Shown here piece after piece: positions 22,470-61,556 of a stretch of 64,000 nucleotides of DNA. The notes below the pieces were generated by a model, which saw only the letters and a program-made list of their open reading frames with translations, was not told where the DNA came from and ran no database searches. The translations under genes were made by a program, and so were the position numbers. The number at the start of each line of letters is the position of its first letter. Positions within the stretch are counted from its first letter, which is position 1. The stretch lies in assembly GCF_056746865.1 (NCBI RefSeq), contig NZ_CM163382.1; one strand, written 5' to 3'.

Positions 22470-23058
22470 TTTCAATTTTCTCAGTTCAAGTTCAGGCTTG
22501 TAATTCTGTTCCTGTATATGCTCTTCATTGGGCTGATAGTTTGCATGAACGGCATCGGAGTATGGTGTTTTCTCAGCAAGTTCAAAGTAGCGTTCCATCG
22601 GAGTTTTACCGTTGTGAGCGCTATGAGGACGTTCCCTGTTATAGTAATGCTACCATTCTGCTAGCAATCCCTTCAGGTCATCAGCAGAAAGATCTACGGT
22701 AGCGTAAAACTCAGCTTTGTCTGTCTTTTGGGAACGTCCAACCTTTATTACATCAGGCGACAACTACCTTGAAAAACGCCGTTACTCACCGATCCCCTTC
22801 ACGGTAATACGCACTATTGCCAGTGAGATTGAATGAAGTCGTTTTAACTCGCTTTGAATACGTCTTGCACCCAGATTTCGCTGAGAACGTAACTTCCAGA
22901 ATCAGAGCGACTTCGCAAGTGCTGGTTTTCGTTGATGGTGAACGCTTGGAGCGACGGCTGTAGCTTTCCAGACCAGCGATGCCCTGAGCCAGATATCTGC
23001 GCCACCATTTACACAATGTGGGCCGAGAAGTGCCACAGTGACGGCATACAAATGTCAA
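22470..23058 (-). pseudogene. IS481/IS3-like transposase remnant (HTH fragment plus integrase-core C-terminus with in-frame TAG)
   Basis: N-terminal fragment CKWWRRYLAQGIAGLESYSRRSKRSP and C-terminal fragment HYYNRERPHSAHNGKTPMERY separated by stops. Confidence 0.4.
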
Positions 23059-23101
23059 CGACGGATGAAAAGTGGCTCTTACGCAACCTGGATGGAGATT
23101 T

Positions 23102-24119
23102 TCATGCCAGTGGACTCATGACCCTCTGCCTGAGTAGTTCAAATCCGGCTCGACCATACATCTGGCCTTTCAGCATTTTTAGTCGATTTACATGACTTTC
23201 GACAACCCCCATTATTCCAGCGACTGCTGATTGCCTCACATATAGCCGCAGCATCAGCTGCCATCCTTGCAGCCACGCGCCGAAGTTACCACTTTCTCGT
23301 TGCTCTTTTAACCACTCCCTCCATGGGGCCAGAAGTCCTCGCTCTGGAGGCCGGGTTGACATTTCAGGGAATGTTCCTGAACACACCCAGAGACTGACTG
23401 TCACACGTGATAAGCCTGTAATACGGGATATTTCCCCTGAACCCACATCCCTTGTTATGTAGTGCCATAACCTCTGTCCAACGCTGATGCCGTTTTTGGC
23501 GGGTTTGCTGTTTAAGGCGTTCCGGACGACGGAGCGATGCTACAGGCACAGACAGTACTGGCTTAGGTGATTTCTTTGGTGACAACCCACTGGCAACAAG
23601 ACGTATCAGAGGCATCTGTCTGTACATCATTCGTTCAGGCGCATCGCCAATATTTTTTAGCAGGTGCCATCGATCAGCTATCTGTCTGGCCTGAGGTGCA
23701 CCTTCACGTGCTGCTGTCGCATAGACTCCGCCACGGTCACGTGAGACAACCTGTATTTCCGGATATTTTCTGAACCAGGTCGCCAGCGTACTCTGATCGC
23801 AACCGGGAAGCAGGACGAGGGGACGGTGAGTATCAAGATTGACGATTAACGTGCCGTAATGGTGGCCCCGATGCCACGCCCACTCATCAATACCGACATG
23901 AGGCGCGCCCGACTGTTTCGTCTCCGGGGTATTAATAACCCTGCGAAGAAGAGTATCAGCACTGCAACGTAGCCCCACTGCCGTTGCTGCCTGTTTCCCG
24001 GCCTCACCTCCGGCTATTAATCCCGGTTGACGTTGTAAATTTTGTAACGCCTGTGAATACTGCTGATGTGAACTGTGAAGGGAGGCTGAGACTCGGCAAA
24101 ATTTTTCGTTAACAGGCAA
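23102..24119 (-). pseudogene. DDE transposase remnant, ISL3-like, in two overlapping frames
   Basis: Motifs DRWHLLKNIGDA and VNRLKMLKGQMYGRAGFELLRQRV; frameshift between ORFs 23102-23446 and 23364-24119. Confidence 0.45.
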
Positions 24120-24545
24120 GGGTTATGGCAGCACCAGAGTAAGATGCGTCTGGGCTGAGCAGGGTAAGTGCTGTATCTGGAGGCGATGGCATCTATGAAC
24201 TGAGTAGCTGTGCTTAAGGTATTCAACACATAGTGCTGTTTTGCATTTTCCGGGGAGATGGAGGGTTATATACCGTCAGAGCTAATAACTTCTTGACCGT
24301 ATTGCCATCAGCAAAGTAACCGTAGAAATCTCTTAAGTGAGTGTATTAAGTTACCCATAACTTAAAACGGCTTCACTGGTAAGCCTCATACATTTTCTTT
24401 CACTCAAGTTGTGGAAGCCCTCTTTCGTCGAACCGTTCGTTATAAATGCAAAAGATGTATGCTGACCCTCTCAAAGCCGAAATCATACAGAGTTTATGGA
24501 AAAGTGGTGAACCAGTCGCGTCGAAAGTAGATTGAGCTCATATCA

Positions 24546-25739: not shown

Positions 25740-25813
25740 TGTAATGTTTCAACACCATGTATTAATTGTGTTTATTTGTAAAATTAATTTTTCTGACAAT
25801 AACATTTCTCATT

Positions 25814-25832: not shown

Positions 25833-25874
25833 GACATAATTGTTATTATTTTACTGTGTAGGAGCTGTTTGATT

Positions 25875-28547: not shown

Positions 28548-30289
28548 TGAATCACAAAGACTGGGATTTGGTCAACCGCCGCTTGGTGGCAAAAATGTTG
28601 TCTGAGCTGGAGTATGAGCAGGTTTTCCACGCGGAATCTCAGGGCGATGACCGCTACTGCATTAACCTGCCGGGAGCACAATGGCGCTTCATCGCTGAAC
28701 GTGGTATCTGGGGCTGGCTCTGGATTGATGCTCAAACTCTGCGCTGCGCGGACGAGCCAGTACTGGCTCAGACGCTGCTGATGCAGCTAAAGCAGGTACT
28801 GTCAATGAGCGATGCAACCGTTGCTGAGCATATGCAGGATTTGTATTCCACGCTGCTGGGCGACCTGCAACTGCTGAAAGCCCGTCGCGGGCTGAGCGCC
28901 AGTGACCTGATTAATCTTAGTGCCGACCGCCTGCAATGCCTGCTGAGCGGTCATCCTAAATTCGTTTTTAATAAAGGTCGCCGTGGCTGGGGTAAAGAGG
29001 CGCTGGAACGATATGCGCCAGAGTATGCCAACACCTTTAGACTGCACTGGCTGGCGGTAAAACGTGAACATATGATCTGGCGCTGTGATAACGAGATGGA
29101 TATTCATCAGTTGTTGACGGCCGCAATGGATCCGCAGGAGTTTGCCCGCTTCAGTCAGGTCTGGCAGGAAAACGGACTGGATCATAACTGGCTGCCGCTG
29201 CCTGTACATCCGTGGCAGTGGCAGCAAAAAATCGCCACCGACTTCATCGCTGATTTTGCCGAAGGCAGGATGGTGTCTCTCGGCGAGTTTGGCGACCAGT
29301 GGCTCGCCCAGCAGTCGCTGCGTACCCTGACCAACGCCAGTCGCCGGGGTGGGCTGGATATCAAGCTGCCGCTGACCATCTACAACACCTCATGCTACCG
29401 GGGGATTCCTGGCAGATACATCGCTGCCGGACCACTGGCTTCACGCTGGCTACAACAGGTTTTTGCGACCGACGCTACCCTGGTGCAAAGCGGTGCAGTG
29501 ATCCTTGGTGAACCGGCTGCAGGCTATGTCTCCCATGAAGGCTATGCCGCGCTTGCCCGGGCTCCCTATCGCTACCAGGAAATGCTTGGTGTTATCTGGC
29601 GGGAGAATCCGTGCCGCTGGCTGAAACCGGATGAAAGTCCGGTTCTGATGGCAACACTGATGGAGTGCGACGAAAACGATCAGCCGCTGGCAGGCGCATA
29701 TATAGACCGCTCCGGGCTGGACGCTGAAACCTGGCTTACGCAACTGTTCCGGGTGGTCGTGGTTCCTCTGTATCACCTGCTTTGCCGCTACGGTGTCGCG
29801 CTTATTGCACATGGACAAAATATAACGCTCGCCATGAAAAAGGGGGTTCCACAGCGTGTTCTGCTGAAAGACTTCCAGGGCGATATGCGGCTGGTGAAAG
29901 AAGAGTTCCCCGAAATGGACTCTTTGCCTCAGGAGGTTCGTGATGTTACATCCCGCCTGAGTGCGGACTACTTAATCCATGATTTGCAGACGGGTCACTT
30001 CGTGACAGTACTGCGTTTTATTTCGCCACTGATGGTTCGTCTTGGCGTACCTGAACGGCGATTTTATCAACTGCTGGCAGCAGTGTTGAGTGATTACATG
30101 AAAAAACATCCACAAATGTCAGAGCGTTTTGCGCTTTTCTCACTTTTCAGGCCACAAATCATTCGCGTGGTGCTGAACCCGGTAAAACTGACCTGGCCTG
30201 ATCTGGATGGCGGCAGCCGCATGCTGCCGAATTACCTTGAGGATCTGCAAAATCCGCTGTGGCTGGTAACTCAGGAATATGAATCATGA
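28547..30289 (+). CDS. iucC: Aerobactin synthetase IucC
   Basis: 580-aa IucA/IucC-family ORF; overlapping start/stop with neighbours. Confidence 0.9.
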   Translation: MNHKDWDLVNRRLVAKMLSELEYEQVFHAESQGDDRYCINLPGAQWRFIAERGIWGWLWIDAQTLRCADEPVLAQTLLMQLKQVLSMSDATVAEHMQDLYSTLLGDLQLLKARRGLSASDLINLSADRLQCLLSGHPKFVFNKGRRGWGKEALERYAPEYANTFRLHWLAVKREHMIWRCDNEMDIHQLLTAAMDPQEFARFSQVWQENGLDHNWLPLPVHPWQWQQKIATDFIADFAEGRMVSLGEFGDQWLAQQSLRTLTNASRRGGLDIKLPLTIYNTSCYRGIPGRYIAAGPLASRWLQQVFATDATLVQSGAVILGEPAAGYVSHEGYAALARAPYRYQEMLGVIWRENPCRWLKPDESPVLMATLMECDENDQPLAGAYIDRSGLDAETWLTQLFRVVVVPLYHLLCRYGVALIAHGQNITLAMKKGVPQRVLLKDFQGDMRLVKEEFPEMDSLPQEVRDVTSRLSADYLIHDLQTGHFVTVLRFISPLMVRLGVPERRFYQLLAAVLSDYMKKHPQMSERFALFSLFRPQIIRVVLNPVKLTWPDLDGGSRMLPNYLEDLQNPLWLVTQEYES

Positions 30290-31563
30290 AAAAAAGTGTC
30301 GATTTTATTGGTGTAGGGACAGGGCCATTTAATCTCAGCATTGCTGCGTTGTCACATCAGATCGAAGAACTGGACTGTCTCTTCTTTGATGAACATCCTC
30401 ATTTTTCCTGGCATCCGGGTATGCTGGTACCGGATTGTCATATGCAGACCGTCTTTCTGAAAGATCTGGTCAGTGCTGTTGCACCTACAAATCCCTACAG
30501 CTTTGTTAACTATCTGGTGAAGCACAAAAAGTTCTATCGCTTCCTTACAAGCAGACTACGTACAGTATCCCGTGAAGAGTTTTCTGACTACCTCCGCTGG
30601 GCTGCTGAAGATATGAATAACCTGTATTTCAGTCATACCGTTGAAAACATTGATTTCGATAAAAAACGTCGATTGTTTCTGGTGCAAACCAGCCGGGGAG
30701 AATATTTTGCCCACAATATCTGCCTTGGTACAGGAAAACAACCTTATTTACCACCCTGTGTGAAGCATATGACACAATCCTGTTTCCATGCCAGTGAAAT
30801 GAATCTTCGTCGGCCGGACCTTAGTGAAAAACGGGTAACCGTGGTTGGTGGAGGACAGAGTGGTGCAGACCTGTTCCTTAATGCATTACGCGGGGAATGG
30901 GGAGAAGCGGCGGAAATAAACTGGATCTCCCGGCGGAATAATTTTAACGCACTGGATGAGGCTGCTTTTGCTGATGAGTATTTTACACCTGAATATATTT
31001 CAGGCTTCTCCGGACTGGAGGAAGATATTCGCCATCAGTTACTGGATGAGCAGAAAATGACATCGGATGGCATCACTGCCGATTCTTTACTGACCATTTA
31101 TCGTGAGTTGTACCACCGTTTTGAAGTTCTGAGAAAACCAAGAAATATCCGTCTGCTACCCAGCCGCTCGGTAACAACTCTGGAAAGTAGTGGTCCTGGC
31201 TGGAAGTTGCTGATGGAGCATCATCTGGATCAGGGCAGGGAGAGCCTGGAAAGTGATGTGGTGATTTTCGCCACAGGTTACCGTTCTGCGTTGCCACAAA
31301 TACTTCCCTCACTGATGCCGCTGATCACCATGCACGATAAGAACACCTTTAAAGTGCGTGATGACTTCACTCTGGAATGGAGTGGCCCGAAAGAGAACAA
31401 CATCTTCGTGGTCAACGCCAGTATGCAAACCCATGGCATCGCCGAACCTCAGCTCAGCCTGATGGCATGGAGATCTGCACGTATTCTTAATCGTGTAATG
31501 GGACGTGATTTATTCGATCTCAGTATGCCGCCCGCCCTGATTCAGTGGCGCAGCGGCACCTAG
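30286..31563 (+). CDS. iucD: L-lysine N6-monooxygenase IucD
   Basis: 425-aa ORF with N-terminal FAD-binding motif GVGTGPFN. Confidence 0.9.
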   Translation: MKKSVDFIGVGTGPFNLSIAALSHQIEELDCLFFDEHPHFSWHPGMLVPDCHMQTVFLKDLVSAVAPTNPYSFVNYLVKHKKFYRFLTSRLRTVSREEFSDYLRWAAEDMNNLYFSHTVENIDFDKKRRLFLVQTSRGEYFAHNICLGTGKQPYLPPCVKHMTQSCFHASEMNLRRPDLSEKRVTVVGGGQSGADLFLNALRGEWGEAAEINWISRRNNFNALDEAAFADEYFTPEYISGFSGLEEDIRHQLLDEQKMTSDGITADSLLTIYRELYHRFEVLRKPRNIRLLPSRSVTTLESSGPGWKLLMEHHLDQGRESLESDVVIFATGYRSALPQILPSLMPLITMHDKNTFKVRDDFTLEWSGPKENNIFVVNASMQTHGIAEPQLSLMAWRSARILNRVMGRDLFDLSMPPALIQWRSGT

Positions 31564-33910: not shown

Positions 33911-35145
33911 TCAAAACGCCATATTCAGTTTCCCGTAGTGGAACATCACGCCCAGCTTAAAGCGTTCCCGATTGCGGTATCCCCTGGCTTTTATCCTCAG
34001 CAGCCTGAGCTTACTGTTAAGCGCCTCCGCGTTTCCGTTTGAGACACGGTGTCGCATGGCATTCAGGATCCCATACAGCCTTTTTCCTATCGTTTTCGTG
34101 GCGTTTTTCATCATAGTAATGTCACTGTTGGCCGCCAGAGCCAGCAATCTCTCCCACTCATTACGTCTTTCCTCACTTCATGGCCTGTTCCAGATATTCT
34201 TTGCCAGCTCTTTCAGCGCCCAGCACAGGCTTGTCAGCTTCATCTGTGCACGCAGCCATATCAGCTTTTCCTGCCTGGATTCGGTCATCCATTTATCGTT
34301 GTACTGCCACAGGAAGCGGGTCCCCTTTGCCTGACGCCGACTTTCAACAGGGAGGTGTGGATGTTCATCCTGACGGATTTTATCAACTACTTCACCAAGT
34401 TGCTTTGCTACATGGAAGCGGTCGAAGGCGATTTTCTCAACCGCACAGGGTAAGTGGATACGCGCTGCTCTTATACAGCCTGCATTCATGTCCATTGAGA
34501 GCGTTTTGATAGCCAGCAACTGCCCGTCAGTAAGCGTGCGAAGATAGCCGGCGAGGCTCTCTGTGCCACGATCGTCCGTTAAGGCCAGTGCACGACCATC
34601 GCGATCGGAGATCACAGTTATATAACAATGTCCTTTTTTAAAGGCGACCTCATCCACATTCATATGACGGGCGGATAATGGCTTTTTTATCCGGGCAAGA
34701 CCTCGCTTAACTGCCCGGGTCATAATGCCGTCAACCGCATTCCAGCTGAGCTTAAGTTGTTTCCTTACAGCATCAACAGTGCTGATTTTCAGCCATGAGA
34801 GAACGAGTCGAACAGCAGCGTATACCGCCTTCCGGGGCCAGCCCAGGGAACTAGCAACGTCTGGCAGCCATGCTCCGGGCACATAATGCGGGGCACATCG
34901 GCTTCGACAATAGTGGTGAACTGGCAGATATCAAGATGACGCCATTTACGATGACGGTGATCGTGAACAGAACAGGATTTACCGCAGGTCGGACAGGCTA
35001 ACCGGGCATTTTTAGCGATTCCAACTGTGACGGTAACAGAACCGGCGTTTTCATCGAGAGAAAGATATTTAACCTGCCATGGAGCGGTCAGGTTGATAAT
35101 ATGAGCGTAGAGGGACCTTTCGTCCATGGCGGTGACCTTTGGCAA
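33911..35145 (-). pseudogene. ISL3-family transposase, split into three frames by frameshifts
   Basis: N-terminal zinc-finger (CPTCGKSCSVHDHRHRKW...CPEHGC), core DRFHVAKQLGE, C-terminal GYRNRERFKLGVMFHYG; ORFs 34789-35145, 34178-34882 and 33911-34147. Confidence 0.65.
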
Positions 35146-39906: not shown

Positions 39907-39938
39907 AATTCAGTACCTATAGTGAGCAAAATTAGAAC

Positions 39939-40239: not shown

Positions 40240-41287
40240 ATGAAATATACACCGGTTGGCGTTGATATCGCAAAGTATCTGATTCAGGTTCACTTCATCA
40301 ATGAGTACACGGGCGAAGTGGTGGACAAGCAGCTACGTAGCAAGGATTTTCTGACGTTCTTCAGCAACCGGGAACCCTGTCTGATAGGTATGGAGGCTTG
40401 TGGAGGCTCCCAACATTGGGCGAGGGAACTGGAAAAAACTGGGACACAAAGTTCGGCTGTTGCAAGCTCGCTTCGTTAAAGCATTCGTCATGGGCAACAA
40501 AAATGATGTGATGGATGCGCGTGCTATCTGGATGGCGGTACAGCAGCCCAGTAAAGATATCGCTGTTAAAACGGAAGAGAAGCAGTCAGTTCTGGTCCTG
40601 CACCGTTCGCGCAGACAACTGGTGAAGTTCAGAACCTCGCATATTAATACCCTTGGCACGCTCCTCGAGTTTGGTGAAATCCTCCACAAAGATTGGACAG
40701 CGATGGACAGAAAGCTACCGACAGCCCTAGAGCGAATGAAGACGAACCTGCCGCCGTATCTCATCACTGTGCTTGAATACCAGTACAACAGACTGAGTGA
40801 GCTGGGCATGCAGATAGATGGCCTTGATAAACAGATTAACAGCGTGGCACGGCAGAGCGAAAACTGTAAGCGCCTAATGGAAATCCCCGGTGTGGGGCCG
40901 TTAATCGCTACGGCGGTGGTCGCCACCATGGGCGAGGCCTCAGCATTTAAATCCGGACGTGAGTTTGACGCTTATGTCTGTCTGGTGCCGAAGCAGACGG
41001 GGTCCGCTGGGAAGGTTCGCATGCTGGGGATAAGCAAACGTGGGGATACCTACCACCGGACATTATTTATCCATGGGGCAAGGGCGGCAGCATTGCTTAC
41101 CAAAGAACCCGGCCCATGGATCACGGAGCTGAAAAAACGGCAGCCGACAGGTGTAATGCCGATCAGTTTAGGAGCAGTTGACCGATCCAGGGTCTGTTTA
41201 AGAATCCTGAAACGCTCACTCGTTTCCGGATTTTTGTGCACAGAAAAACCCCAGCTAGGCTGGGGGCCGGAAAGCTTTCAGCTTTGA
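40240..41287 (+). pseudogene. IS110-family transposase, frameshifted
   Basis: N-terminal MKYTPVGVDIAKY... in ORF 40141-40479 continues in ORF 40400-41287 after a frame change; the C-terminal part is IS110-like. Confidence 0.6.
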
Positions 41288-41376
41288 GCCAGTTATTAAA
41301 ACCCCTTTTGATTTGTTAAAACACCTTGCGGTCTGGCAACTGCAAGTGTCAAACAAGAAATCAAAAGGGGGTCCCA

Positions 41377-44959: not shown

Positions 44960-45734
<775 letters not shown>

Positions 45735-45740
45735 CTAGCT

Positions 45741-45777
<37 letters not shown>

Positions 45778-46149
45778 TAATTACACTGTGGGTTGACGCC
45801 GGAAGAATCAGAGAACAGATACCGTTCTTACTGTAAAACGTGGCTAATATTAATTGAGCACTGCAGTGTTCAGAGCACAAAGAAGAAAAAAGATGTGTGC
45901 GAATGCCTGTAATGTGTTAAAAGAATGTTCCGCGTTTCCGGTACGCTTTTCGTAACTAACAATGCAGGGTGACGTAACGCTGGTTGTGCCGGAAACGCGT
46001 CCCTCCCCCTATCTTTCCTGTTTGGATTTGCCCCTATATTTCTGGATTATCCGACAAAACCGGCGTGAAGTATTACTCTCGTCGCCCAGCACCATAAGGA
46101 TAACGCCCATAAAATCATGAAACTTTTCTTCCAGATTGGATACAATCAG

Positions 46150-46482: not shown

Positions 46483-46536
46483 AAATCTCCATCCAGGTTG
46501 CGTAAGAGCCACTTTTCATCCGTCGTCGATATCTGG

Positions 46537-47385: not shown

Positions 47386-47739
47386 TTATCCGCTGACGTC
47401 GATATTCCCGTGGTGAGAGATAACCTAACGCACTATGCGGATGGTTTTCATTGTAATGCTCGAACGCCTCTGCAAGGTTATGCAATGCCGTTATTACATT
47501 CAGTTTCGGCATGAACGCGATGTAGTCTTCATTCACGTTTTCACGAACCTTTCTGCCATTCTATTGCTCTGAGGGCTACTGACTGCCGTCGTGCAGGGCT
47601 CCAGATTCAACTCTCTGGCGAATTGCCGTGTTTCATGAGCCGTATAAGCCGAACCGTTATCCGTCCGCCACTGGATTGCTCGTTCCGGTCCTTTATCGCC
47701 AAAGCGTTTTTCTATCGCTCCTAACATCACATCCTGCAC
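47386..47739 (-). pseudogene. IS3-family OrfB (integrase core) C-terminal fragment
   Basis: [45 protein letters not shown] and downstream [14 protein letters not shown]. Confidence 0.55.
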
Positions 47740-48503
47740 TGTCGGCTTTATCGTAACCTCCCGTACTGGTCACGGGCAGACTGTTCATCATGTTAAACCC
47801 AGCCGCTGTCAGATCATGCACCGGCCGGATGGCGGGCTGACCTGCCCCGCCGCGCTGCTGCCCGCCAATCCATTTCTTACCTTCCTTCCCGGTGGCCTGA
47901 CGTCCGGCCTCGTCCCCTTTCACCGCATCACCGTCACCGCTGTTCACCACCTTCTTGTACTCTTCCAGCATCGCTGGCCTGCGTCCATTTGCTGCGATCA
48001 GAAAAGTCCATCATCCGTTTTGCCATGTTCTGGCAGTTCAGTTACGCCTTGTCGAAAGCCACATTCGCCTGCAGCACACCGTTGGTGATCATGTCGTACA
48101 GGCCGGGGTTGGCACGCTGTATCACCATCGCCGGCAGACTGGCAGCGGCGCCGGTCGCCCCCTAAATCACATCCCCCATCAGATTTTTAAAGCCGTCGGT
48201 CAATCCGTTAAGATGATTACCCACCGTGGTCTTCAGGTCAAAGTTGCCGCACATCAGATCGCTGCTCCAGCCCAGGTCCATACCCAGCTTCTGCATGTTG
48301 CTGCGCGTGGCCAACTGTGAGATCACCGAGCCGCCACCCAGCGTATAGAACAGTTTGTCGGATACGGCGCCATCCACGGATTTCCCGTAACCGAACGTGC
48401 TGTCATTCAGTTTCGGCAGGGAAAGAAGATCAGCCATCGCCGGAATACTGCAGTACAGCATCACACTCAGTGCCACCATACCTGTTTTCATCTTCATCAT
48501 CAT
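47740..48503 (-). pseudogene. Exported protein of a conjugative-element operon (weak TraH-like guess), interrupted by in-frame TAG at 48159-48161 and truncated by the IS3 fragment
   Basis: Signal peptide MMMKMKTGMVALSVMLYCSIPAMA; reading frame continues past TAG (GATGAAASLPAMVIQRANPGLYDMITNGVLQANVAFDKA); family assignment is weak. Confidence 0.3.
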
Positions 48504-48509
48504 GGTTCC

Positions 48510-48872
48510 TTAAAAATTCGTACTGCCAAGGAATCGCTGCCCGCGCTTTTCGAAGCAGCTGTAAGGCTGCCACAGTGCAAAGGCTGCATTACCGTTCTCC
48601 GCCGCCTGGTGTTCACCATCCGGGAAAACGGCACAGGAACGCGACACTGACGGCGTCAGTCGCTGCCATTTGTGATTGCGGGTGCCGGTGTTTTCCTCCA
48701 CCGCCTCCGGGGGCCAGTAGCCGTCACGTTTCACGCCCTTAACCTCCCTGTAGACATGCGACTCCCCCATCCGCGTGATAATGTCGGCCACCCGCTGAGC
48801 CCCCACCGCCGCGGCCCGGTCATCATCGCTCTGCATCACAAAACCACTCCGGTGATAAACGCTCCCCCACAT
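48510..48872 (-). CDS. Hypothetical protein in the same operon remnant
   Basis: 120-aa ORF between two signal-peptide genes; no family recognised. Confidence 0.3.
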   Translation of the reverse strand: MWGSVYHRSGFVMQSDDDRAAAVGAQRVADIITRMGESHVYREVKGVKRDGYWPPEAVEENTGTRNHKWQRLTPSVSRSCAVFPDGEHQAAENGNAAFALWQPYSCFEKRGQRFLGSTNF

Positions 48873-48953
48873 GTTTTTATCGGCCTAGCTGCCAATCTCG
48901 CGTTTGCCGGGAACCTGTGCCTCTGGATACAGGGATTCAGGTAATCCCGTTCG

Positions 48954-49484
48954 CTAGACGATGCTGTCCAGGGTACTGAGGAAATAGGCCATGGCCGGTG
49001 TCACCGGTGAATCACAGCTGAATCCGGGTACCATCCCGCCGATAAGCTGTGTGGCCGGATGACCCAGCGCATCTGCATATTTGAAACGAATTGCTGAACG
49101 GCGCTTCCCCTGTATTTTCATATCCGCCGGATTTCCCCCGCCGGCACTCAGCCCGGACAGGCCGTCAGTGATGGCATTCTCCGGGCCACCTGCGGTCCGG
49201 CTGACCAGCGACATCTCTTTCCAGGGATTACCACCCGGTGCCGTATAGGTGGAAATAACCACTTCCGGGATGAAATGTGTCACCTTCACGGAAATTCTGA
49301 CCGTACAGCCAGACGCGCTGCAGTAAAGCCAGTAACAAATCCCGCTGACACGCCAGCTGATATAGTCCGGTGCCGCAGTACTGGCGATAATGCTGGCGGT
49401 GTTCAGTGATACAGACGCCAGGGGCAGTGATGCCACACTCAGTAACAGCACGCCGGTACGCAGACGACATTTCAGGGACATCAT
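48954..49484 (-). CDS. Exported hypothetical protein, cysteine-containing, conjugative-element-like
   Basis: Signal peptide; start ATG overlaps the upstream gene stop (ATGA coupling at 49481-49484). Confidence 0.4.
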   Translation of the reverse strand: MMSLKCRLRTGVLLLSVASLPLASVSLNTASIIASTAAPDYISWRVSGICYWLYCSASGCTVRISVKVTHFIPEVVISTYTAPGGNPWKEMSLVSRTAGGPENAITDGLSGLSAGGGNPADMKIQGKRRSAIRFKYADALGHPATQLIGGMVPGFSCDSPVTPAMAYFLSTLDSIV

Positions 49485-49876
49485 GGCTGCACTCCTCCCT
49501 CAGCACGGATTTTCCCGGCCATCACCACATCCATGGTGCCGTAAACCACCTCACTGTCATCAAACACCACGGCAGGGTATTTCTTCACGCCCAGCGACTA
49601 GGCATGTGCCACATCGCGGTAATGACCGGCCAGTTCCGCCTGCATCGTCTGCCATTCGGGAGACTTCATACGTACCCTGACCACCGATTCAGCCTCACCC
49701 GCATCAGCAGGCAACAGGCCCCAAAAGCGGCTCTGAAGCTGCTCAGGCGCATCCAGCAGAACCACCCTGACACCATCAGGAGGATTAACGGGAAGATGCT
49801 GAGAATCGGTATAAATTGTTGTGCCGGCAGACGCTGCCAGCGGCAGGAAAAACAGGGAACAGAAAATCCGGTACAT
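49481..49876 (-). pseudogene. Exported thioredoxin-fold-like protein (TrbB/DsbA-like guess) with in-frame TAG at 49598-49600
   Basis: Signal peptide MYRIFCSLFFLPLAASA; frame continues after TAG for 39 codons to a TGA that overlaps the next start. Confidence 0.35.
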
Positions 49877-50071
49877 CGTACACCTCAGTCAGATATTATC
49901 TGACTGACAGCGTGCGAAGAAAGCGCTCATTTATCAGCAATAAATTAAAAACGGGATTAAAAAATTACGGTGGGATCCGGGGAAGTGTATCTGCCAAGCA
50001 TAACAGACAGTCTGTGATTATACCCGGCCTTTCACAAAGCCGGGGAACTGATTCATACCAAGTGGTGATTT

Positions 50072-53817: not shown

Positions 53818-53943
53818 ATGCGTAAAGCCCGTATTACTGAGTATTAGATCATCGCTGTAATTAAATCGGTTGAAACCGGACGAACAATTAAAGATGTTTG
53901 TCGGGAAGCCGGTATTTCTGAAGCCACTTACTACATCTATTGA
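53818..53943 (+). pseudogene. IS3-family OrfA fragment with in-frame TAG
   Basis: MRKARITEY-stop-IIAVIKSVETGRTIKDVCREAGISEATYYIY is an HTH OrfA-like peptide. Confidence 0.45.
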
Positions 53944-54158: not shown

Positions 54159-54386
54159 TCACACTGCCTGATATTCTGTATCATTTATCAGCATCGACCA
54201 GATTATTCTCGCGTATTTGTTAGCAATCTCCACAGTAGTTTTATTAAATTCGCGACTCTCCTTTAACTGCTTAACCCACTGATTTAGGTATACATCATTA
54301 TTATTCGTAGCAACTCTAACGACAGCACGGACGCCATGAATAAAAAGTGTTTGCAGATGCTTGTCGCCTTTTTTCGTTATATTCAT
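54159..54386 (-). pseudogene. IS110-family transposase C-terminal fragment
   Basis: GDKHLQTLFIHGVRAVV...ANKYARIIWSML matches the IS110-family C-terminal region. Confidence 0.45.
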
Positions 54387-54627
54387 GAGAACTTACCTGC
54401 AGCAACTCTAGTGCAGGCATGGAAGCAGACCAAGCCATGCAGCACAGTGACGATCATTCTTAAATTCAGTGCCTTTGCCAATAATAACAGCAACAACGCT
54501 CGTGACAATTTCAGGACCAATGCCTTTAGCTTTTGCAATACGCTGACAGCATTCAGATTGCCTGGACAGGTCTCTATTTATTTATCAAAAAAGTTTATAC
54601 TACGACCGAGATCGTTAAAGAGATCAT

Positions 54628-55786
54628 CTAAATAGCTGCGCCTAATACCACTACACTTTTGCCAGCCCATGTTTGCCTCCGGGGAACGGGCTGATGGTTT
54701 CCATAAAATGGCGAATTTTTTTCAACAGTTGCCACATTGAGCGGCACTGATGATTACGCGTTATTGTGTCGTGAAGTGCCTGCCATAGCCGTTCAACATG
54801 ATTCACCCATGGCAAGTAAACCGGCTGATAAATGACCCTGAACTTCGGGTTCTCCTTCAACCAGCGCTGTGTTTCCCGGCTTTTGTGGATAATGTAGTTG
54901 TCCACGATCAGTGTGATGGTTTTCACCCGAAGGTATGTCGCTTTAAGCCGCTTCAGCAGGCTGATGAACAGCGCCGAACTTTTGCTGTTGCCGCCCACAT
55001 AGCTGACTTTACCTGTCCCGCTGTGCAGCGCTCCGGCCAGATCATATTTTTCATTCTGTCCCGGCGTGACCACCCGTTTTTGCTGTCCGCGCAGTTGCCA
55101 GTCCGCACCGATTTTGGGATTAAGATGGATATCCACTTCATCTTCATAAAAGACCGGATGCTCTGTGCTGCATTCGTCCAGTGCTTTATGGATTGCTGCC
55201 ATCTTTTCATCTTTATGCGGGTCACGGATACGCAGAGTTGGCGCAGCCCTTCGCCACACAATCCCCGCAGACGGCAACCAGCGGCGAACGGTTCCGGCAT
55301 TTAACTGGCAATCGGTTATCTCATTGATTTTTATTGCCAGCAGTTCTGTACTCCAGCGTGAACGCTGGTAGCCAAAGTCGCCGGGAGAATGTTTTACCAG
55401 CTCACGTAACAGTGTGCAGATATGCTCAAACGACCAGAGACGGGCTCGCCCGGCAGGTAATGATTTCAGTCCCTCAACACCCGACTGCGTGAACCAGTTA
55501 ATCCAACATCCAACAGAGGAACGGGCGCAGCAGAGCGTTCTGGCAACGTCGCTGACACGGTCGCCCCGGTGCAGCATCAGCATGGCAGTCAGTCTGCGGG
55601 CATAATTTTTATCGTGTGTTTTATGGATGGCTTTCTGCATCAGGCGTCGTTCGTCACGGGAAATTGGTGCTATGATCGGCATTGCTCAGTCCGGTTGGTG
55701 ATTTGTTTTGATTTGGCGATTGATCAGATCGCACAATCCAGGCTGAGCTCCCTCAAAGTGATCTACTATTCCGCGCAGCTATTTAG
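54628..55786 (-). mobile_element. IS630-family insertion sequence (about 1.16 kb) with terminal inverted repeats
   Basis: Ends CTAAATAGCTGCGC (54628) and GCGCAGCTATTTAG (55786); intact 343-aa transposase inside. Confidence 0.8.
54651..55682 (-). CDS. IS630-family transposase
   Basis: 343-aa ORF with IS630-like N-terminal HTH and DDE region. Confidence 0.8.
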   Translation of the reverse strand: MPIIAPISRDERRLMQKAIHKTHDKNYARRLTAMLMLHRGDRVSDVARTLCCARSSVGCWINWFTQSGVEGLKSLPAGRARLWSFEHICTLLRELVKHSPGDFGYQRSRWSTELLAIKINEITDCQLNAGTVRRWLPSAGIVWRRAAPTLRIRDPHKDEKMAAIHKALDECSTEHPVFYEDEVDIHLNPKIGADWQLRGQQKRVVTPGQNEKYDLAGALHSGTGKVSYVGGNSKSSALFISLLKRLKATYLRVKTITLIVDNYIIHKSRETQRWLKENPKFRVIYQPVYLPWVNHVERLWQALHDTITRNHQCRSMWQLLKKIRHFMETISPFPGGKHGLAKV

Positions 55787-56027
55787 TTCCGCTATCGTTC
55801 TGCACATACAAGCTCTTAACCCGTTTATGCATCCTCAAGGCTCAGCAGAATAGCTGTCAGCGCCAATGATATAAGACAGTAATGGGGATGCGGACGATTT
55901 CCTGGACTCTCAGGAGATGAAACATGTTTACTGAAGAAGAAAAAATCCGCGCCATTGAGCTTTATTTCAAATATGTGACCCGTCCTGAATAGCGTTGACA
56001 CGTTCCTACTTAAATCCGGAGAACGTA

Positions 56028-57017
56028 ATGATGACTTAGCTCAAACGCACCCAACGTGATTATCCTCTATCCTTTAAAATAGCTGTTGTTGAGCAGGTTG
56101 AAAAAGGCGAGATGACTTATAAACAGGCCCAGCAGCGGTATGGCATTCAGGGGCGCTCCACCGTTCTTGTCTGGTTACGTAAATATCCTGGACTTCCTGA
56201 GCTGGTGAAGAGGAAACTGCCTGTGACTCAGACAACTATCCCGCTCACACCCGAGCAAAGAATCAGGGAACTTGAAACGTAGCTTGAGCTGGCGAACCAG
56301 AAAGCTACGTTTTTTGAGTCAGTTATCAATGTCCTGAAAAATGATTACGGGGTGAGTATCGTAAAAAGCGGCCCGGCAAGTCCTCGCGCAAAGTCCGGTC
56401 CCCAAAATAACTGTGACGCGTGCAGTCTGTTCCTGGGACACAGCAGACAGGCATGGTATCAGGACAATGCAAGGCGCAGAAAACGGCAGGAACATCATGC
56501 TCAGGTTCTTGATTTTGTTGCCCGTGTCAGATGTCGTCAGCCCCGAATCGGTGCGCGTAAGCTGCACTATCTGCTGAACACTCAGGCCGATAAAAGGCTG
56601 AATATCGGGCGAGACCGCCTGTTTAACCTGCCCGATGAATACCGACTCCTGGTGCCAGTAAAACGGTCATATCACAAAACTACCAACAGCCATCATCGCT
56701 TCTACCGACATCCAAACCTGCTTAAACCAGGCCCTGAACAGGTTACTGCTCTTGAACCAGAACAGGTCCGGGTCGCCGATATTACTTACCTTCCACTGCG
56801 CAATAGTTCGGCCTATCTGAGTCTGGTCACCGATGCCTGCTCCAGAAAAATTATGGGCTACCATGTTGGGGAAAACCTGCAGACAGAAAATGTGGTAAAA
56901 GCGTTCAGACAGGTGCTGAAGCTGAGAAAAACGACGAGTCCCCTGGTGCATCATTCTGGCAGGGGCTGCAATACTGTTCAGCGCTCTATCAGTCAGTTCA
57001 TGAAAGAAATGAAATAA
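56028..57017 (+). pseudogene. IS3-family transposase remnant with in-frame TAG stops and a 3' frameshift
   Basis: TAG at 56037 and 56280 inside an otherwise continuous frame; OrfB-like core (DITYLPLRNSSAYLSLVTDACSRKIMGYHVG...LVHHSGRG); C-terminus (AIYNHERPHLALKYKTPYDVHQAFY) in another frame to about 57245. Confidence 0.55.
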
Positions 57018-57485
57018 CCTGTTCAATGACTGATGGTTATGACTGCTACCAGCATTGGCTGAGTGAATAAATGGTACCCTGAAAAATGAGTTTTTACTCT
57101 CGCGTCCTGCAGACCTGGCTCAGGCCCGGGAAATGGTCCAAGAGTCCGTGGCAATTTATAACCATGAGCGGCCACACCTGGCTCTGAAATACAAAACGCC
57201 CTATGACGTTCATCAGGCGTTTTACAGACAGAAAAGTGTCAACTTATACCAAGACTAGTCAATGGTAAGAAGCTGGCTCCCGTCGTACGCGAACTGGGCT
57301 ACCCTTCGAAAAGAAATCTGCGGCGTTGGATCCGTTCATAGGAATCAGGTGGCGGAGCAAAAGAATCCATTCGCCATAAGCCCCGTTACACAGATGAGCA
57401 AAAACAAGTTGCCGTTGAACATTATCTTAACCACGGCTGCTGCCTAGCGTTTACCAGTAGAACTCTGGGTTATCCCTGTACCGAT

Positions 57486-57878
57486 GTGCTCGCTCGCTGG
57501 GTTAATGAACGTTACCCCGGCAGACGACGTATATTTACCAGTAAGACCAGTCCGGTTGCGCCCTTTGAACCAGAAGTCAAACGTCAGGCTGTCATGGCAT
57601 TCTGTACACGACAAATATCAGCCAGTGAAATCTCTAGGCGTATTGGTGTCAGTCGTGCGGTATTGTATAAATGGAAAGATGAAATTATCGGCAACAGTGC
57701 TTACCAGACTATGCGTAAACATAACGAACCTTCCCTAGAGGCAGAACGCGATGCGTTGCGGGAGGAAGTCGCCCGACTGAATCAGGAAATACGCCGCCGG
57801 CAGATGGAACTGGATATTCTGAAAAAAGCGGAGAAAATCATAAAAAATCTATGGTCACCCCCGTTTTTGCTACACTGA
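57486..57878 (+). pseudogene. IS3-family OrfA-like fragment
   Basis: HTH (SASEISRRIGVSRAVLYKWKDE) followed by leucine-zipper-like REEVARLNQEIRRRQMELDILKKAEKI. Confidence 0.45.
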
Positions 57879-58122
57879 TTTTTGATTAATGGTGGGCTTG
57901 CTTAAATCTATCCGGCGTCTCTGTGGACAAGGAGACCCGCGCCTCGATGAGTTCCGCACCTGATAATCCTAAAAAGACCCTCGGCTTCAGTGAGCCATTT
58001 TTTCTGTCAGGTTTTTAATCAGGTCTATTTGCCGTTCATGTCATCAATAATCAGTCTTCGCAAAACCAGACAGGTAACTTGTATCGTAAGCGTGCAGCAA
58101 GAACCGTATTGACGGGGATGTG

Positions 58123-59661
58123 TTATTCAGTCGGCAGTGCTACGCGCCAGGGGAGCAGTTCGCCGACCCGGTTTATCGGCCAGTCGGCTATGACGTCAAG
58201 GACATAGCGGAGGTAGCTTTCTGGCTCCACTCCGTTCAGTTTGCACGTCCCGATCAGGCTGTACAGCAGCGCTCCCCGCTCTCCTCCATGATCCGAACCG
58301 AAGAACAGGTAGTTTTTGCGGCCCAGACTGACCATCCGCAACGCATTTTCAGCGATGTTATTGTCCGCCTCAGCCCAGCCATCATCTGCATAGTACGTCA
58401 GCGCCGGCCACTGGTTCAGGGCGTATGCGAACGCTTTCGCCAGTTCTGAGTGTCGCGACAGGGTTTTCATCTTTTCACGCAGCCAGCTTTCCAGGGATTT
58501 CAGCAGCGGTTTCGTTTTCAACTGACGTTCGGCAAGGCGCTGCTCCGCCGTCATTCCCCTTATCTCTGCCTCGATGGCGTACAGTTCGCCGATCCGTTTC
58601 AGCGCTTCCTCCGTCAGGGCTGACGGGGTGCGAACGTGCACATCGTGGATTTTACGGCGGGCGTGAGCCCAACAGGCGGCTTCCGTTATCCGGCCATCCC
58701 GGTACAGCTCGTTGAACCCGGCGTATGCATCCGCCTGCAGTACACCACTGAACCCCGCAAGATGGGTCTGCGGATGGATGCCTTTTCTGTCCGGGCTGTA
58801 AGCGAACCACACCGCCGGCGCCAGCGTTGACCCGGCGTTACGGTCGTCACGAACGTAGGTCCATAACCGCCCGGTCTTCGTTTTCTTATTGCCTGGCAAC
58901 AGCACCGGGACAGGCGTGTCATCAGCATGGAGCTTACCGTCAGTCAGCACATAGTCCTGAAGCGCTTCTTCCAGCGGTGACAGTAGCCGGCAGCATGCAT
59001 CCACCCAGCCCGACAGCAGTGAACGACTCAGCTCCACGCCCTGGCGGCCGTACATTTCAGACTGGCGGTACAGCGGGGTGTGCTCTGCATACTTTGAGAT
59101 CAGCACGCGGGCCAGCAGCCCCGGTCCTGCGATACCCCGCTCGATGGGCCGTGAAGGCGCGGGGGCCTGCACGATGGCATCGCACTGAGTACAGGCATGC
59201 TTTTCACGTACAGTCCGGATAACCCGGAAGGCGCTGCGCATCAGCTCCAGCTGTTCGGCGGCATCCTCACCCAGATAGCTCAGCGAGCCTCCACATTCCG
59301 GGCAGCATGACGCTGCCGGCAGCAGCCGTTTTTCATCGCGGGGGAGTGATTCGGGGAACGGTTTGCGGGTGCGGGTTTGACGCAGCGGGCGCTGCACGGC
59401 CGGGTCGTCAACCCGACCGGTAAGGGTATCACTTTCTTTCTGAAGTGCCTTCAGGTCAGCTTCCATCTGTGCGATACGACGGGAGACTTTTTCCGAGCGG
59501 CTGCCGAAGTTCATCCGGCGCAGCTTATCCAGCTGTGCCTGCAGATGGTCTATTTCGCGTTCACGCTCGTTCAGCTTTTCCTGCAGGGCACGGTTCAGCG
59601 CCTCCTGTTCGGCAAGGAGACGTTTCAGTGCATTGATATCGTCAGGAAGTGAGCTGCTCAT
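58123..59661 (-). CDS. tnpC: IS66-family transposase TnpC
   Basis: 512-aa ORF with N-terminal coiled coil, zinc-finger CPECGG...CTQC and DDE region. Confidence 0.85.
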
Positions 59662-59709
59662 ACCGGGTATATTACCAGGCTCATTCAGCGTCGACCAGGA
59701 TAAAGAGGC

Positions 59710-60057
59710 TTACAACATAGTCAGGGACGTAAGCAGTCTTTTAGGCTGCCGCCAGTCGATACCTTCCAGCAGCATCGCCAGCTGTGCCGGTGTGAGGAAC
59801 ACTTTGCCATCCCGGGCTGACGGCCAGGCGAAGCGGCCGCGCTCCAGCCGTTTGGTCAGCAGACACAGTCCATCGCCGGTAGACCAGAGGAGCTTTACCT
59901 GACTGCCATTACGCCCACGGAAGATAAAAACGTGACCTGACATCGGATCGTCTTTCAGCGTCGTCTGCACCTTTGCCGCCAGGCCGTTGAAGCCGTTTCT
60001 CATATCGGTGATGCCAGCGACCAGCCAGATCTTTGTCCCTGATGGTAATGGGATCAA
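59710..60057 (-). CDS. tnpB: IS66-family accessory protein TnpB
   Basis: 115-aa ORF in canonical position. Confidence 0.8.
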   Translation of the reverse strand: MIPLPSGTKIWLVAGITDMRNGFNGLAAKVQTTLKDDPMSGHVFIFRGRNGSQVKLLWSTGDGLCLLTKRLERGRFAWPSARDGKVFLTPAQLAMLLEGIDWRQPKRLLTSLTML

Positions 60058-60458
60058 CGTTTGAGCTCCCGTATCAGCAGGTTCAGGATATTTTCACTGA
60101 TGGCACCATTCAGACGGAGTGATCCGTGCCGGAACGTCACTTCACAGCTGATATTGAGTGATTCAGGTGTCGCAGTAGCTACAGGTTGTGACCGGGGGGA
60201 GGTTGTAGGGACAACATCTTCGGCATCAAGTGTTATCGGGAGCAGCTCAGGCACGTTGTTTTCTGTTGTTGAAGGAGGACGTAGTTTTCCTTCGCGCCAG
60301 TACTGGCGCCACTTGAACAGCAAATTATCGTTGATCCCATGCTCACGAGCGAGTTGCGCTACGGAGATCTCTGGTCGATGCGAGAGTTCAACCATTTTGA
60401 TTTTGAACTCAACGGGATAATTAGGGCTTTTTTTACGCACTGCGGTTAATGATTTCAT
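60054..60458 (-). CDS. tnpA: IS66-family OrfA (TnpA, HTH)
   Basis: 134-aa ORF; 4-bp overlap with tnpB. Confidence 0.8.
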   Translation of the reverse strand: MKSLTAVRKKSPNYPVEFKIKMVELSHRPEISVAQLAREHGINDNLLFKWRQYWREGKLRPPSTTENNVPELLPITLDAEDVVPTTSPRSQPVATATPESLNISCEVTFRHGSLRLNGAISENILNLLIRELKR

Positions 60459-60569
60459 GGATAGCGTCCACCATATTTGGTGTCCACTATTCTCTCAGGA
60501 ATTTCAGGATCTGCCAGACGGTGCTGAGACGACGCTTACCTTGTATCTTATTTTTTAAAATAAGCTAAT

Positions 60570-61556
60570 TGAGTTTTGTCAGTATCTATATCAGGCCTGA
60601 TATTCTTTGTGCAGAGCAGTGATTGCCCAGGCTATTCGGGCCAGTTTATTTGCCAGAGCGCAGGCGACAATATTTGAATGCTTATTGTCGAGTTGCTTTT
60701 GAACCCATTCAGCAACTCTGCCCTATTGATGCTCCAGCCGCATCATGAACGAGCGGGCGTACAGAACAAGTAACCGACTCGTTTGCTGATCCCCAGCAGC
60801 ATTGATTTACCACCGGTACTGTATTGTCGGGGAACAAGTCCTGTGGATGCTGCAAAATCCCTACTGCACGAAAATTGTTTACCATCACCAAGCTGGGATG
60901 ATAGCAGGCTGGCCGTCATCGGCCCAACACCGGGGATTGTCATGATTCGTTGCACAGTAGCGTCAGCTTTGATTGACTGGTTTAACTCTGATTCCAGTTC
61001 TGTTATTTGCTCAATACGATAAAGATAGTGAGCATGTAATTTCATCAGCAAGCGACTCAGATATTCAGGTATTTCGTGTTCAGCTAACGCCAGAGATAAC
61101 CATTTTATTGCGGCATCCCCTGTCGGCAGTCTGATTCCAAATTCCAGCAAGAAACCGTGGATCTGGTTGTTTTTTTTCACCTTATCTCTGATGAGCGATT
61201 CTCTGACCCGATGTAATGCCCTCATTGCCTGCTGGGTTTCTGTTCTGGGCTGGACAAAACGCATTGATGGTCGTGAAGCCGCTTTGCATATGGCTTCTGC
61301 ATCAATAAAATCATTCTTATTACCTTTGACAAACGGACGCACGAATTACGGAGAGATAAGTTTTTCTTCATGACCGATGTCGCTGATACGCCGGGCCATA
61401 AAATGCGTACCAGCGCAGGCTTCCATAACAACTACTGAGGATGGACATGTTGCCAGAAACTGCATCAGCTTCGTACGCGTAAACTTTTTACGCAAAAGCG
61501 CATTGCCAGATTTATCTTGACAATGAATATGGAAAGAATGTTTACCGAGATCGATA
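60570..61556 (-). pseudogene. IS110-family transposase with nonsense codons (TAA at codon 2 and near 61347) and a C-terminal frameshift; IS66 inserted at its end
   Basis: N-terminal ...NVALIGIDLGKHSFHIHCQDKSGN; central VKGNKNDFIDAEAICKAASRPSMRFV; C-terminal VACALANKLARIAWAITAL in another frame. Confidence 0.55.

What the first reader, a model, noticed from the sequence alone, without database searches (positions are those of the whole stretch)
22470..61556. Recurrent in-frame TAG/TAA nonsense codons, rather than frameshifts, in many IS and conjugation genes
At least eight otherwise continuous reading frames are interrupted by single nonsense codons (TAG near 22650, 45224, 48159, 49598, 53845, 56037 and 56280; TAA near 61347), several at positions where IS3-family OrfA proteins usually have Gln. 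This bias toward C-to-T type nonsense changes could reflect a mutational process (for example deamination) or selection to silence transposases. Only one of the sites I checked (49598) has a CCWGG-derived context consistent with Dcm.
Basis: partly seen in the sequence, partly recalled or inferred. Interest (0 to 1): 0.3.

Follow-up and report, generated by a model that had tools for sequence, protein, structure and literature searches.

The report
Ordinary mutational decay of IS relics
The stop codons are real, but they are the expected debris of neutral decay in dead insertion sequences and a dead conjugative-element fragment in an E. coli genomic island, where frameshifts are at least as common, so nothing unusual is needed to explain them.

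Summary
All eight stops exist. Each lies in a homology-supported frame and is one base away from a sense codon: six Gln, one Trp and one Glu, the Glu change being a transversion. Three independent E. coli assemblies carry the same stops, so they are not sequencing errors.

The headline claim, "rather than frameshifts", fails. A census of twelve IS and ICE relics between 22.4 and 62.5 kb found about 20 in-frame nonsense codons (12 TAG, 6 TAA, 2 TGA) and at least 24, nominally 29, frameshifting indels. The relics also carry large deletions, truncations and nested IS insertions. Only the ICE fragment is nonsense-rich (5 stops, 1 frameshift; not significant).

I modelled expectations from the reference codon content and the local substitution spectrum. 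That model predicts 43% TAG and 57% transition-derived stops. Observed were 60% and 75% (p about 0.09 and 0.07). The number of stops is no higher than neutral decay predicts.

Every transition that creates a stop is necessarily G:C to A:T. The local spectrum shows the usual bacterial AT bias. No neighbour-base signature of a special deaminase appears. Dcm sites are mildly enriched, and two amber codons, not one, sit at former CCWGG sites. Intact IS630 and IS66 copies nearby argue against transposase silencing. The finding is ordinary and already explained.

The parts
22458..23052 (-). IS481-like transposase relic. It has an amber codon at 22650-22652 (Gln in all relatives), one frameshift and an internal deletion of the catalytic core.
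   Evidence: In alignment A3 the stop falls on the conserved Q of the 'AEWQHYYNW' motif. The N-terminal HSPs lie in two different frames. PGAP note: frameshifted; internal stop; incomplete.
23102..24358 (-). ISEc38-like (ISL3 family) relic. It has 8 frameshifting indel events, a deletion of about 347 nt, and stops GGA>TGA at 24308 and TCA>TAA at 24109, both transversions.
   Evidence: Codon-level alignment to the intact ISEc38 copy in L010, 88% identity.
33911..35127 (-). ISKox3-like (ISL3 family) relic. It has a 4-nt deletion and TGG>TGA at 34178-34180.
   Evidence: Alignment to the intact ISKox3 copy in L009, 91% identity.
40240..41139 (+). IS110-family relic. It has one 1-nt frameshift, a 3' truncation and no nonsense codon.
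   Evidence: Alignment to the intact IS110 transposase in L012.
45082..45865 (+). ISEc31-like IS3-family relic. It has CAG>TAG at 45224-45226, several frameshifting indels and a large OrfB deletion.
   Evidence: tblastn HSPs fall in three frames, and the stop aligns with Q of 'DQQRIRELEKQ'. Seven frameshifting gaps appear against the L004 copy. The closest E. coli relative outside the identical copies is only 78% identical.
47390..47760 (-). IS2-like IS3-family OrfB fragment that truncates the ICE remnant. It has one frameshift and no nonsense codon.
   Evidence: blastn to the L004 and L002 IS3 copies shows one gap. The homologous sequence switches reading frame in the three-frame translation.
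47761..49956 (-). Remnant of an integrating conjugative element: TIGR03757, TIGR03756 (TraU-like) and a truncated TIGR03755. It has five nonsense codons: 49598 TGG>TAG at CCTGG, 48954 TGG>TAG, 48885 CAG>TAG at CCAGG, 48162 CAG>TAG and 48042 CAA>TAA. It also has one 1-nt insertion near 47977.
   Evidence: A single 2196-nt HSP, 93.7% identical with one gap, to an intact E. coli ICE (L007). The stops fall on an invariant W and a conserved Q in alignment A1. Dcm contexts were checked.
53818..53940 (+). 41-codon IS3-family OrfA stump. It has an amber codon at 53845-53847, which aligns with Gln in relatives.
   Evidence: In alignment A2, 12 of 13 relatives have Q ('FTEHQIIAV'); one near-identical variant has Y.
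54159..54627 (-). IS110-family C-terminal fragment. It has stops GAA>TAA at 54578, TCG>TAG at 54408 and CAG>TAA at 54393, plus one 1-nt deletion.
   Evidence: Alignment to an intact IS110 transposase in L011, 84% identity.
55976..57261 (+). IS3-family relic inserted into another IS. It has GAG>TAG at 56037 (a transversion), CAG>TAG at 56280, and four frameshifting deletions at 56368, 56425, 56962 and 57052.
   Evidence: Comparison with a 95%-identical but independently decayed copy in L004. No intact close relative was found on plasmids.
57262..57847 (+). Middle piece of an IS3-family element that is split into three pieces (55924-55975, 57262-57847, 61648-62530). It has TGG>TAG at 57339-57341. 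The 3' piece has deletions of 4, 1 and 11 nt.
   Evidence: Alignment to the intact 511-aa transposase gene at L004 7259-8794.
60537..61700 (-). IS110-like relic. It has CAA>TAA at 61574 and 61346, CAG>TAG at 60723, and a 16-nt deletion.
   Evidence: Comparison with a 94%-identical copy in L006. That copy has two different Gln-to-stop changes of its own.
58086..60536 (-). Intact IS66-family element (tnpA, tnpB, tnpC) with an 8-bp target duplication CTTGTATC. It is absent from otherwise identical islands. It serves as a control showing that transposases here are not generally silenced.
   Evidence: The window is collinear with L001 and L002 except for this 2451-bp insertion. Junctions and terminal repeats were read. 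Its ORFs are intact.
54651..55682 (-). Intact IS630-family transposase gene (343 aa) lying among the relics.
   Evidence: ORF list. PGAP annotates it as intact, WP_001354603.1.

Best explanation
The window is an E. coli chromosomal genomic island. It carries aerobactin iuc/iut, sitABCD, sodC and iha, and its variable part is a graveyard of dead insertion sequences plus a fragment of an integrating conjugative element. Each copy lost function through truncation, a nested IS insertion, a deletion or a first point mutation. After that it accumulated mutations without constraint.

Point substitutions and small indels both occurred. About 4% of random substitutions in coding sequence create stops, so stops build up alongside frameshifts at roughly one stop per frameshift. 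The stops are mostly amber codons derived from Gln and Trp for three reasons. Transitions outnumber transversions. The only transitions that create stops are G:C>A:T (CAG, CAA, CGA, TGG). CAG and TGG are the commonest of those codons here.

Bacterial mutation is AT-biased, mainly through C/G>T/A transitions. Dcm-methylated CCWGG sites add a small hotspot contribution. The stops are old and inherited with the island. They have no function.

Shown directly: the ancestral codons, the indel counts, the substitution spectrum and the sharing among strains. Inferred: the order of events and the neutrality of the decay.
For: Ancestral codon or residue for every stop comes.

Census: about 20 stops against at least 24 (nominally 29) frameshifting indels in the same 12 relics. 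PGAP independently flags 13 of 19 pseudogenes as frameshifted.

The number of stops is at or below the neutral expectation: 12 against 15.6 and 17 against 36.

Stop type and the transition share do not differ significantly from a model built on reference codon content and the local spectrum.

The spectrum from reference to window shows G:C>A:T 163 against A:T>G:C 98. This is the known universal AT bias driven by C/G>T/A transitions (PMC2936535).

Dcm sites are mutated 5/42 against 165/3876 elsewhere. This matches the classical amber hotspots at CCAGG (PMC12606429).

Constraint on the ICE genes appears relaxed: 52 codons differ synonymously and 56 non-synonymously.

Identical stops occur in three other assemblies. 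Parallel decayed copies elsewhere carry their own, different Gln-to-stop changes (L006).
Against: The ICE fragment alone has 5 nonsense codons and 1 frameshift, about p=0.07 against the pooled ratio by my own arithmetic. TAG and transition shares lie above expectation at p about 0.07-0.09, and TGA is somewhat scarce (2 of 20).

Several references are only 78-88% identical or are themselves decayed. As a result some ancestral codons, and the lineage on which some indels arose, are uncertain.

Differences were not polarised with outgroups.
Confidence: 0.9

Rival explanations
1. A specific cytosine-deamination process acted on these mobile-element genes and generated the stops. Candidates are Dcm-dependent 5-methylcytosine deamination, deamination of single-stranded DNA during conjugative transfer, or a DNA-deaminase toxin.
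For: 15 of 20 stops are G:C>A:T. Two ICE amber codons sit at former CCWGG sites. Dcm targets are mutated three times more often than other C/G sites, p=0.03. The ICE fragment has 5 stops and 1 frameshift.
Against: No 5'-neighbour preference among 170 C>T changes, p=0.45. The transition share among stops is not significantly above the model, p=0.07. Dcm sites explain only 2 of 12 TAG codons and 5 of 170 C>T changes. A:T>G:C changes and transversions are abundant in the same alignments. Five stops arose by transversion.
Confidence: 0.07
2. Selection favoured nonsense mutations that silence transposases and conjugation genes.
For: Many stops lie early in OrfA-type genes (45224, 53845, 56037, 61574).
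Against: The same copies are truncated, internally deleted, split by other IS elements or frameshifted, so the stops add nothing. The number of stops does not exceed the neutral expectation. Stops also occur downstream of frameshifts, for example 34178 and 60723. Intact IS630 and a newly inserted intact IS66 element lie in the same stretch.
Confidence: 0.02
3. The stops are sequencing or assembly errors.
For: None found.
Against: Identical 43-mers, or a 63-mer with one neighbouring SNP, surround every stop in independent complete genomes from China and Paraguay. In addition, 235 E. coli records match the 45.0-45.8 kb relic at 99% identity or more.
Confidence: 0.005
4. The amber codons are read through, by a suppressor tRNA or by programmed recoding, so the genes remain functional.
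For: TAG is the commonest stop among the lesions.
Against: No tRNA gene of any kind lies in the window. TAA and TGA lesions and frameshifts sit in the same genes. The genes are also truncated. Amino-acid divergence looks relaxed.
Confidence: 0.005

Closest known systems
Neutral decay of pseudogenes and IS relics in E. coli and Shigella genomic islands
   Same: The lesions are a mix of frameshifts, nonsense codons, truncations and nested IS insertions. The relics are shared by descent among strains. PGAP labels them 'frameshifted; internal stop; incomplete'. This is the usual operational definition of a bacterial pseudogene (PMC3218036 methods).
   Different: No difference of kind. The ICE fragment is slightly nonsense-rich (5:1), but the numbers are too small to matter.
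Universal AT-biased mutation in bacteria, driven by C/G>T/A transitions (Hershberg and Petrov 2010, PMC2936535)
   Same: From reference to window, G:C>A:T exceeds A:T>G:C by 163 to 98, or 322 to 234 over all eight alignments. Most stops arise from that class.
   Different: The differences here are unpolarised pairwise comparisons, not rooted SNPs.
Dcm (CCWGG) 5-methylcytosine deamination hotspots for amber mutations (Coulondre et al. 1978, as reviewed in PMC12606429)
   Same: Two amber codons derive from CCTGG (49598) and CCAGG (48885). Dcm targets are mutated about three times more often than other C/G sites.
   Different: The contribution is minor: 2 of 12 TAG codons. The enrichment is about 3-fold, not the roughly 10-fold seen in lacI.
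Repeat-induced point mutation (RIP) in fungi, and APOBEC or DddA-type deaminase hypermutation
   Same: C-to-T changes that produce stops in repeated or mobile DNA.
   Different: No dinucleotide context bias. Transversions, A:T>G:C changes and indels are abundant. Divergence is modest. These processes do not apply here.

Membership tests
Decaying pseudogene (non-functional relic) | Homology to an intact gene family continues across the lesion | tested here: met
   Full-length alignment of the interrupted TIGR03756 gene product to 9 intact proteins. A 2196-nt DNA alignment to an intact ICE. IS relics aligned to intact ISKox3, ISEc38, IS110 and IS3 genes.
Decaying pseudogene (non-functional relic) | Multiple independent disabling lesions of different kinds in the same gene | tested here: met
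   Nine of the 12 relics carry both a stop and a frameshift, and most are also deleted or truncated. The other three (40240-41139, 47390-47760 and 53818-53940) carry one of the two point lesions plus a truncation.
Decaying pseudogene (non-functional relic) | Relaxed constraint, with non-synonymous change roughly equal to synonymous change | tested here: inconclusive
   ICE genes show 52 synonymous against 56 non-synonymous codon differences. This suggests relaxation, but no formal dN/dS was computed and the differences are unpolarised.
Dcm 5-methylcytosine deamination hotspot | The mutated base is the second C of CCWGG, or its partner G, in the ancestral sequence | tested here: met
   Met for 49598 (GCC TGG) and 48885 (AGC CAG G) in the intact reference L007. 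Not met for the other TAG codons checked.
Dcm 5-methylcytosine deamination hotspot | Raised C>T rate at Dcm targets compared with other C/G sites | tested here: met
   5/42 against 165/3876, odds ratio 3.0, Fisher p=0.034. The effect is weak.
Deaminase-driven hypermutation (RIP-like, APOBEC or DddA-like) | Strong dinucleotide context preference for the mutated C | tested here: not met
   The 5'-neighbour distribution of 170 C>T changes matches the background, chi-square p=0.45. The 3'-neighbour effect is weak, p=0.035.
Deaminase-driven hypermutation (RIP-like, APOBEC or DddA-like) | C>T overwhelmingly dominates all other substitution classes | tested here: not met
   C>T accounts for 322 of 883 differences (36%). 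A>G accounts for 234 and transversions for 327.
Programmed recoding or stop-codon readthrough | The stop is conserved at the same position across functional family members | tested here: not met
   Relatives have sense codons (Q, W or E) at every position.
Programmed recoding or stop-codon readthrough | A cognate suppressor tRNA or recoding signal is present | tested here: not met
   No tRNA gene lies in the window. The only Rfam gathering-score matches are two sRNAs. The rest of the genome could not be tested.

The most novel reading that the evidence does not exclude
The most novel reading the evidence does not exclude concerns the ICE fragment. Its five G:C>A:T nonsense codons against a single indel, two of them at Dcm sites, might be a faint footprint of raised cytosine deamination specific to conjugative or heavily methylated DNA, rather than background mutation. 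Deamination while the element was transferred as single-stranded DNA would be one route.
Probability: 0.05. Interest if true: 0.3.

Novelty: already known. Interest (0 to 1): 0.07.

Why it matters
It matters little beyond housekeeping. The result shows that this IS-rich part of the island is inert debris inherited with the island. It gives a worked example of why amber codons from Gln and Trp dominate the nonsense lesions in E. coli pseudogenes: the structure of the genetic code, transition and AT bias, codon usage and Dcm hotspots. It also warns that a list of stops picked by eye overstates both the TAG bias and the absence of frameshifts.

Tried and rejected
I looked for intact close relatives of the IS3 relic at 55883-57261 on plasmids and found none. 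Only decayed copies of about 95% identity turned up. The same search for the 45.0-45.8 kb relic in E. coli genomes gave nothing closer than 78% apart from identical copies. Ancestral states for those two relics therefore rest on a decayed sister copy and on a distant ISEc31-like element.

IS1A from L009 did not match the IS1 relic at 35.4-36.1 kb by blastn. That relic, the ones at 42649-42903 and 46155-46484, and those beyond 62.5 kb were not analysed at codon level. Only the PGAP flags were used for them.

One apparent stop, AAA>TAA at 62331, sits next to an alignment gap. I treated it as uncertain and left it out of the count of 20.

A first statistical test on 15 stops gave a nominal p=0.005 for excess transitions.

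The amber-suppressor idea was rejected because the window has no tRNA gene. Sequencing error was rejected by cross-assembly identity.

Lee et al. 2012, the E. coli mutation-accumulation spectrum, could not be retrieved. Its indel-to-substitution ratio is not used as evidence.
Full report
What the region is. The window is a chromosomal genomic island of Escherichia coli. Stretches of 12-25 kb recur at 99.9-100% identity in complete genomes from human and poultry isolates. The left end holds the usual island core: a RelE/ParD pair, CbtA/YeeU, an antirestriction gene, DUF932 and a YadA-like adhesin. Next come an MFS transporter with iucABCD-iutA (24.5-33.8 kb), sitABCD (36.4-39.9 kb), sodC (43.3 kb) and iha (50.8-52.9 kb). 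Transposase fragments fill the gaps between these cargo genes. NCBI's PGAP annotation of the identical DNA in three strains labels 19 features between 22.4 and 61.6 kb as pseudogenes. Thirteen are flagged 'frameshifted', ten 'internal stop', and only three have an internal stop without a frameshift.

Checking the observation. All eight stops are present. Their exact positions are 22650-52 (-), 45224-26 (+), 48162-64 (-), 49598-600 (-), 53845-47 (+), 56037-39 (+) and 56280-82 (+), all TAG, and 61346-48 (-), which is TAA. To learn what each codon used to be, I collected relatives.

The ICE genes gave the cleanest case. The interrupted TraU-like TIGR03756 gene has an intact 92%-identical E. coli homologue. 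The contig encoding it (L007) aligns to window 47761-49956 as a single 2196-nt HSP at 93.7% identity with one gap. At codon level this fragment holds five nonsense codons: TGG>TAG at 49598 and 48954, CAG>TAG at 48885 and 48162, and CAA>TAA at 48042. It also has a 1-nt insertion near 47977, and an IS2-like fragment truncates TIGR03755. In an alignment with nine intact proteins, one stop falls on an invariant Trp and another on a conserved Gln.

For the IS relics the results were as follows.
- 45224 aligns with CAG (Gln) of an ISEc31-like element.
- 53845 aligns with Gln in 12 of 13 relatives.
- 22650 aligns with the conserved Gln of the 'AEWQHYYNW' motif in an IS481-like family.
- 56280 aligns with CAG, and 56037 with GAG (a G>T transversion), in a 95%-identical sister copy.
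- 61346 aligns with CAA in a 94%-identical sister copy. That sister copy carries two different Gln-to-stop changes of its own.

Every stop is also present in EC6563, EC17CM2 or 1517k. The stops are therefore inherited features, not read errors.

The list was a subsample. The same relics and their neighbours hold at least twelve more in-frame stops.
- TAG at 48885, 48954, 54408, 57339 and 60723.
- TAA at 24109, 48042, 54393, 54578 and 61574.
- TGA at 24308 and 34178.

More importantly, the frames are not otherwise continuous. Alignment to intact references shows the following lesions.
- ISEc38-like relic: eight frameshifting indel events and a 347-nt deletion.
- ISKox3-like relic: a 4-nt deletion.
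- ISEc31-like relic: seven frameshifting gaps and a missing catalytic core.
- The split IS3 element: deletions of 4, 1 and 11 nt. It is broken into three pieces by two later insertions.
- IS110-like relic at 60.5-61.7 kb: a 16-nt deletion.
- Relic at 55976-57261: four 1- to 4-nt deletions. Two of them fuse OrfA to OrfB.

Over the eight reference-aligned relics there are 883 substitutions, 25 indel events (23 frameshifting) and 17 in-frame stops. Four further relics were compared with sister copies or protein families. Adding them gives about 20 secure stops against at least 24, nominally 29, frameshifting indels. The claim 'rather than frameshifts' therefore fails. Only the ICE fragment is nonsense-rich (5 to 1). 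Against the pooled ratio that is about p=0.07 by my own binomial arithmetic.

Is the stop spectrum unusual? Only five single-base transitions turn a sense codon into a stop: CAG>TAG, CAA>TAA, CGA>TGA, TGG>TAG and TGG>TGA. All five are G:C>A:T. A 'C-to-T type' bias among transition-derived stops is therefore built into the genetic code.

I built an expectation from the codon content of the reference genes and the six-class substitution spectrum measured in the same alignments. That model predicts 43% TAG, 28.5% TAA, 28.5% TGA and 57% transition-derived stops. Observed were 12, 6 and 2 stops, with 15 of 20 derived from transitions. The chi-square test gives p=0.15, and the one-sided binomial tests give p=0.09 and 0.07.

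The number of stops is not excessive either. Twelve were seen against 15.6 expected in five relics, and 17 against 36 in eight relics, if all substitutions were neutral and random.

The overall spectrum from reference to window shows more G:C>A:T than A:T>G:C: 163 against 98, and 322 against 234 in the larger set. This is the AT-biased mutation pattern reported for bacteria in general, attributed mainly to C/G>T/A transitions (PMC2936535).

Looking for a special process. Among 170 C>T changes the 5' neighbour matches the background (p=0.45). This argues against a context-specific deaminase. The 3' neighbour effect is weak (p=0.035). Dcm target positions are mutated 5 of 42 times, against 165 of 3876 for other C/G sites (odds ratio 3.0, p=0.034). 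This is the textbook 5-methylcytosine hotspot that produced the dominant lacI amber mutations (PMC12606429). Here it is a minor contributor.

Selection to silence transposases is unnecessary. The stops sit in copies that are already truncated or frameshifted, and some lie downstream of frameshifts. An intact IS630 transposase gene (54651-55682) lies among the relics. An intact 2451-bp IS66-family element (58086-60536) does too. That element has an 8-bp target duplication and is missing from otherwise identical islands. Readthrough is unsupported: the window has no tRNA gene, and the Rfam scan found only two sRNAs and no recoding element.

Verdict. The stops are real, single-base and mostly Gln or Trp to amber. 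They are the ordinary product of neutral decay in dead mobile-element genes. Frameshifts are at least as frequent. Neither the count nor the type of stop departs significantly from a simple mutational expectation. The phenomenon is already known, so interest is low.

Limits. Several references are distant (78-88% identity) or are themselves decayed. Differences were not polarised with outgroups. Some alignment gaps in the most divergent relics may belong to the reference lineage. Five PGAP-flagged relics were not examined at codon level.

Noticed in passing
window 58086-60536: An intact IS66-family element (tnpA, tnpB, tnpC; 2451 bp; terminal repeats starting GTAAGCG) is flanked by an 8-bp direct repeat, CTTGTATC. 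It is absent from the otherwise identical islands of strains EC6563 and EC17CM2, so it is a recent strain-specific transposition.
   Followed up: partly
window 55924-55975, 57262-57847, 61648-62530: One IS3-family element, whose relative encodes a fused 511-aa transposase, is split into three pieces by two successive insertions. This is a nested 'IS within IS' stack.
   Followed up: partly
window 41246-41367 (+) and 63277-63419 (-): Full-length Rfam matches to two Hfq-binding sRNA families first described in Salmonella: STnc490 (129 bits) and isrN (138 bits). Both lie among the IS relics.
   Followed up: no
window 30286-31563: iucD is an open 425-codon frame here, but PGAP marks it 'frameshifted' in the near-identical island of strain 1517k. 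The single gap between the window and L003 over 20300-45725 may be that lesion.
   Followed up: no
L006 1300-2600 and L004 23485-24890: Sister copies of two of the relics, on E. coli plasmids, have decayed independently. Each has its own Gln-to-stop changes, and one has a probable Arg-to-stop change, at different positions.
   Followed up: partly
protein P0121 (relative of window 53818-53940): One 98%-identical variant of the OrfA stump has Tyr where the window has TAG and the rest of the family has Gln. That is one base away from TAG, which suggests a later change of the amber codon.
   Followed up: no
window 1-14300: The left end carries the conserved island backbone: a RelE/ParD pair, CbtA/YeeU, DUF4942, an antirestriction gene, DUF932, a GTPase and an inovirus Gp2-family protein. 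All are intact, in contrast to the decayed IS-rich part.
   Followed up: no
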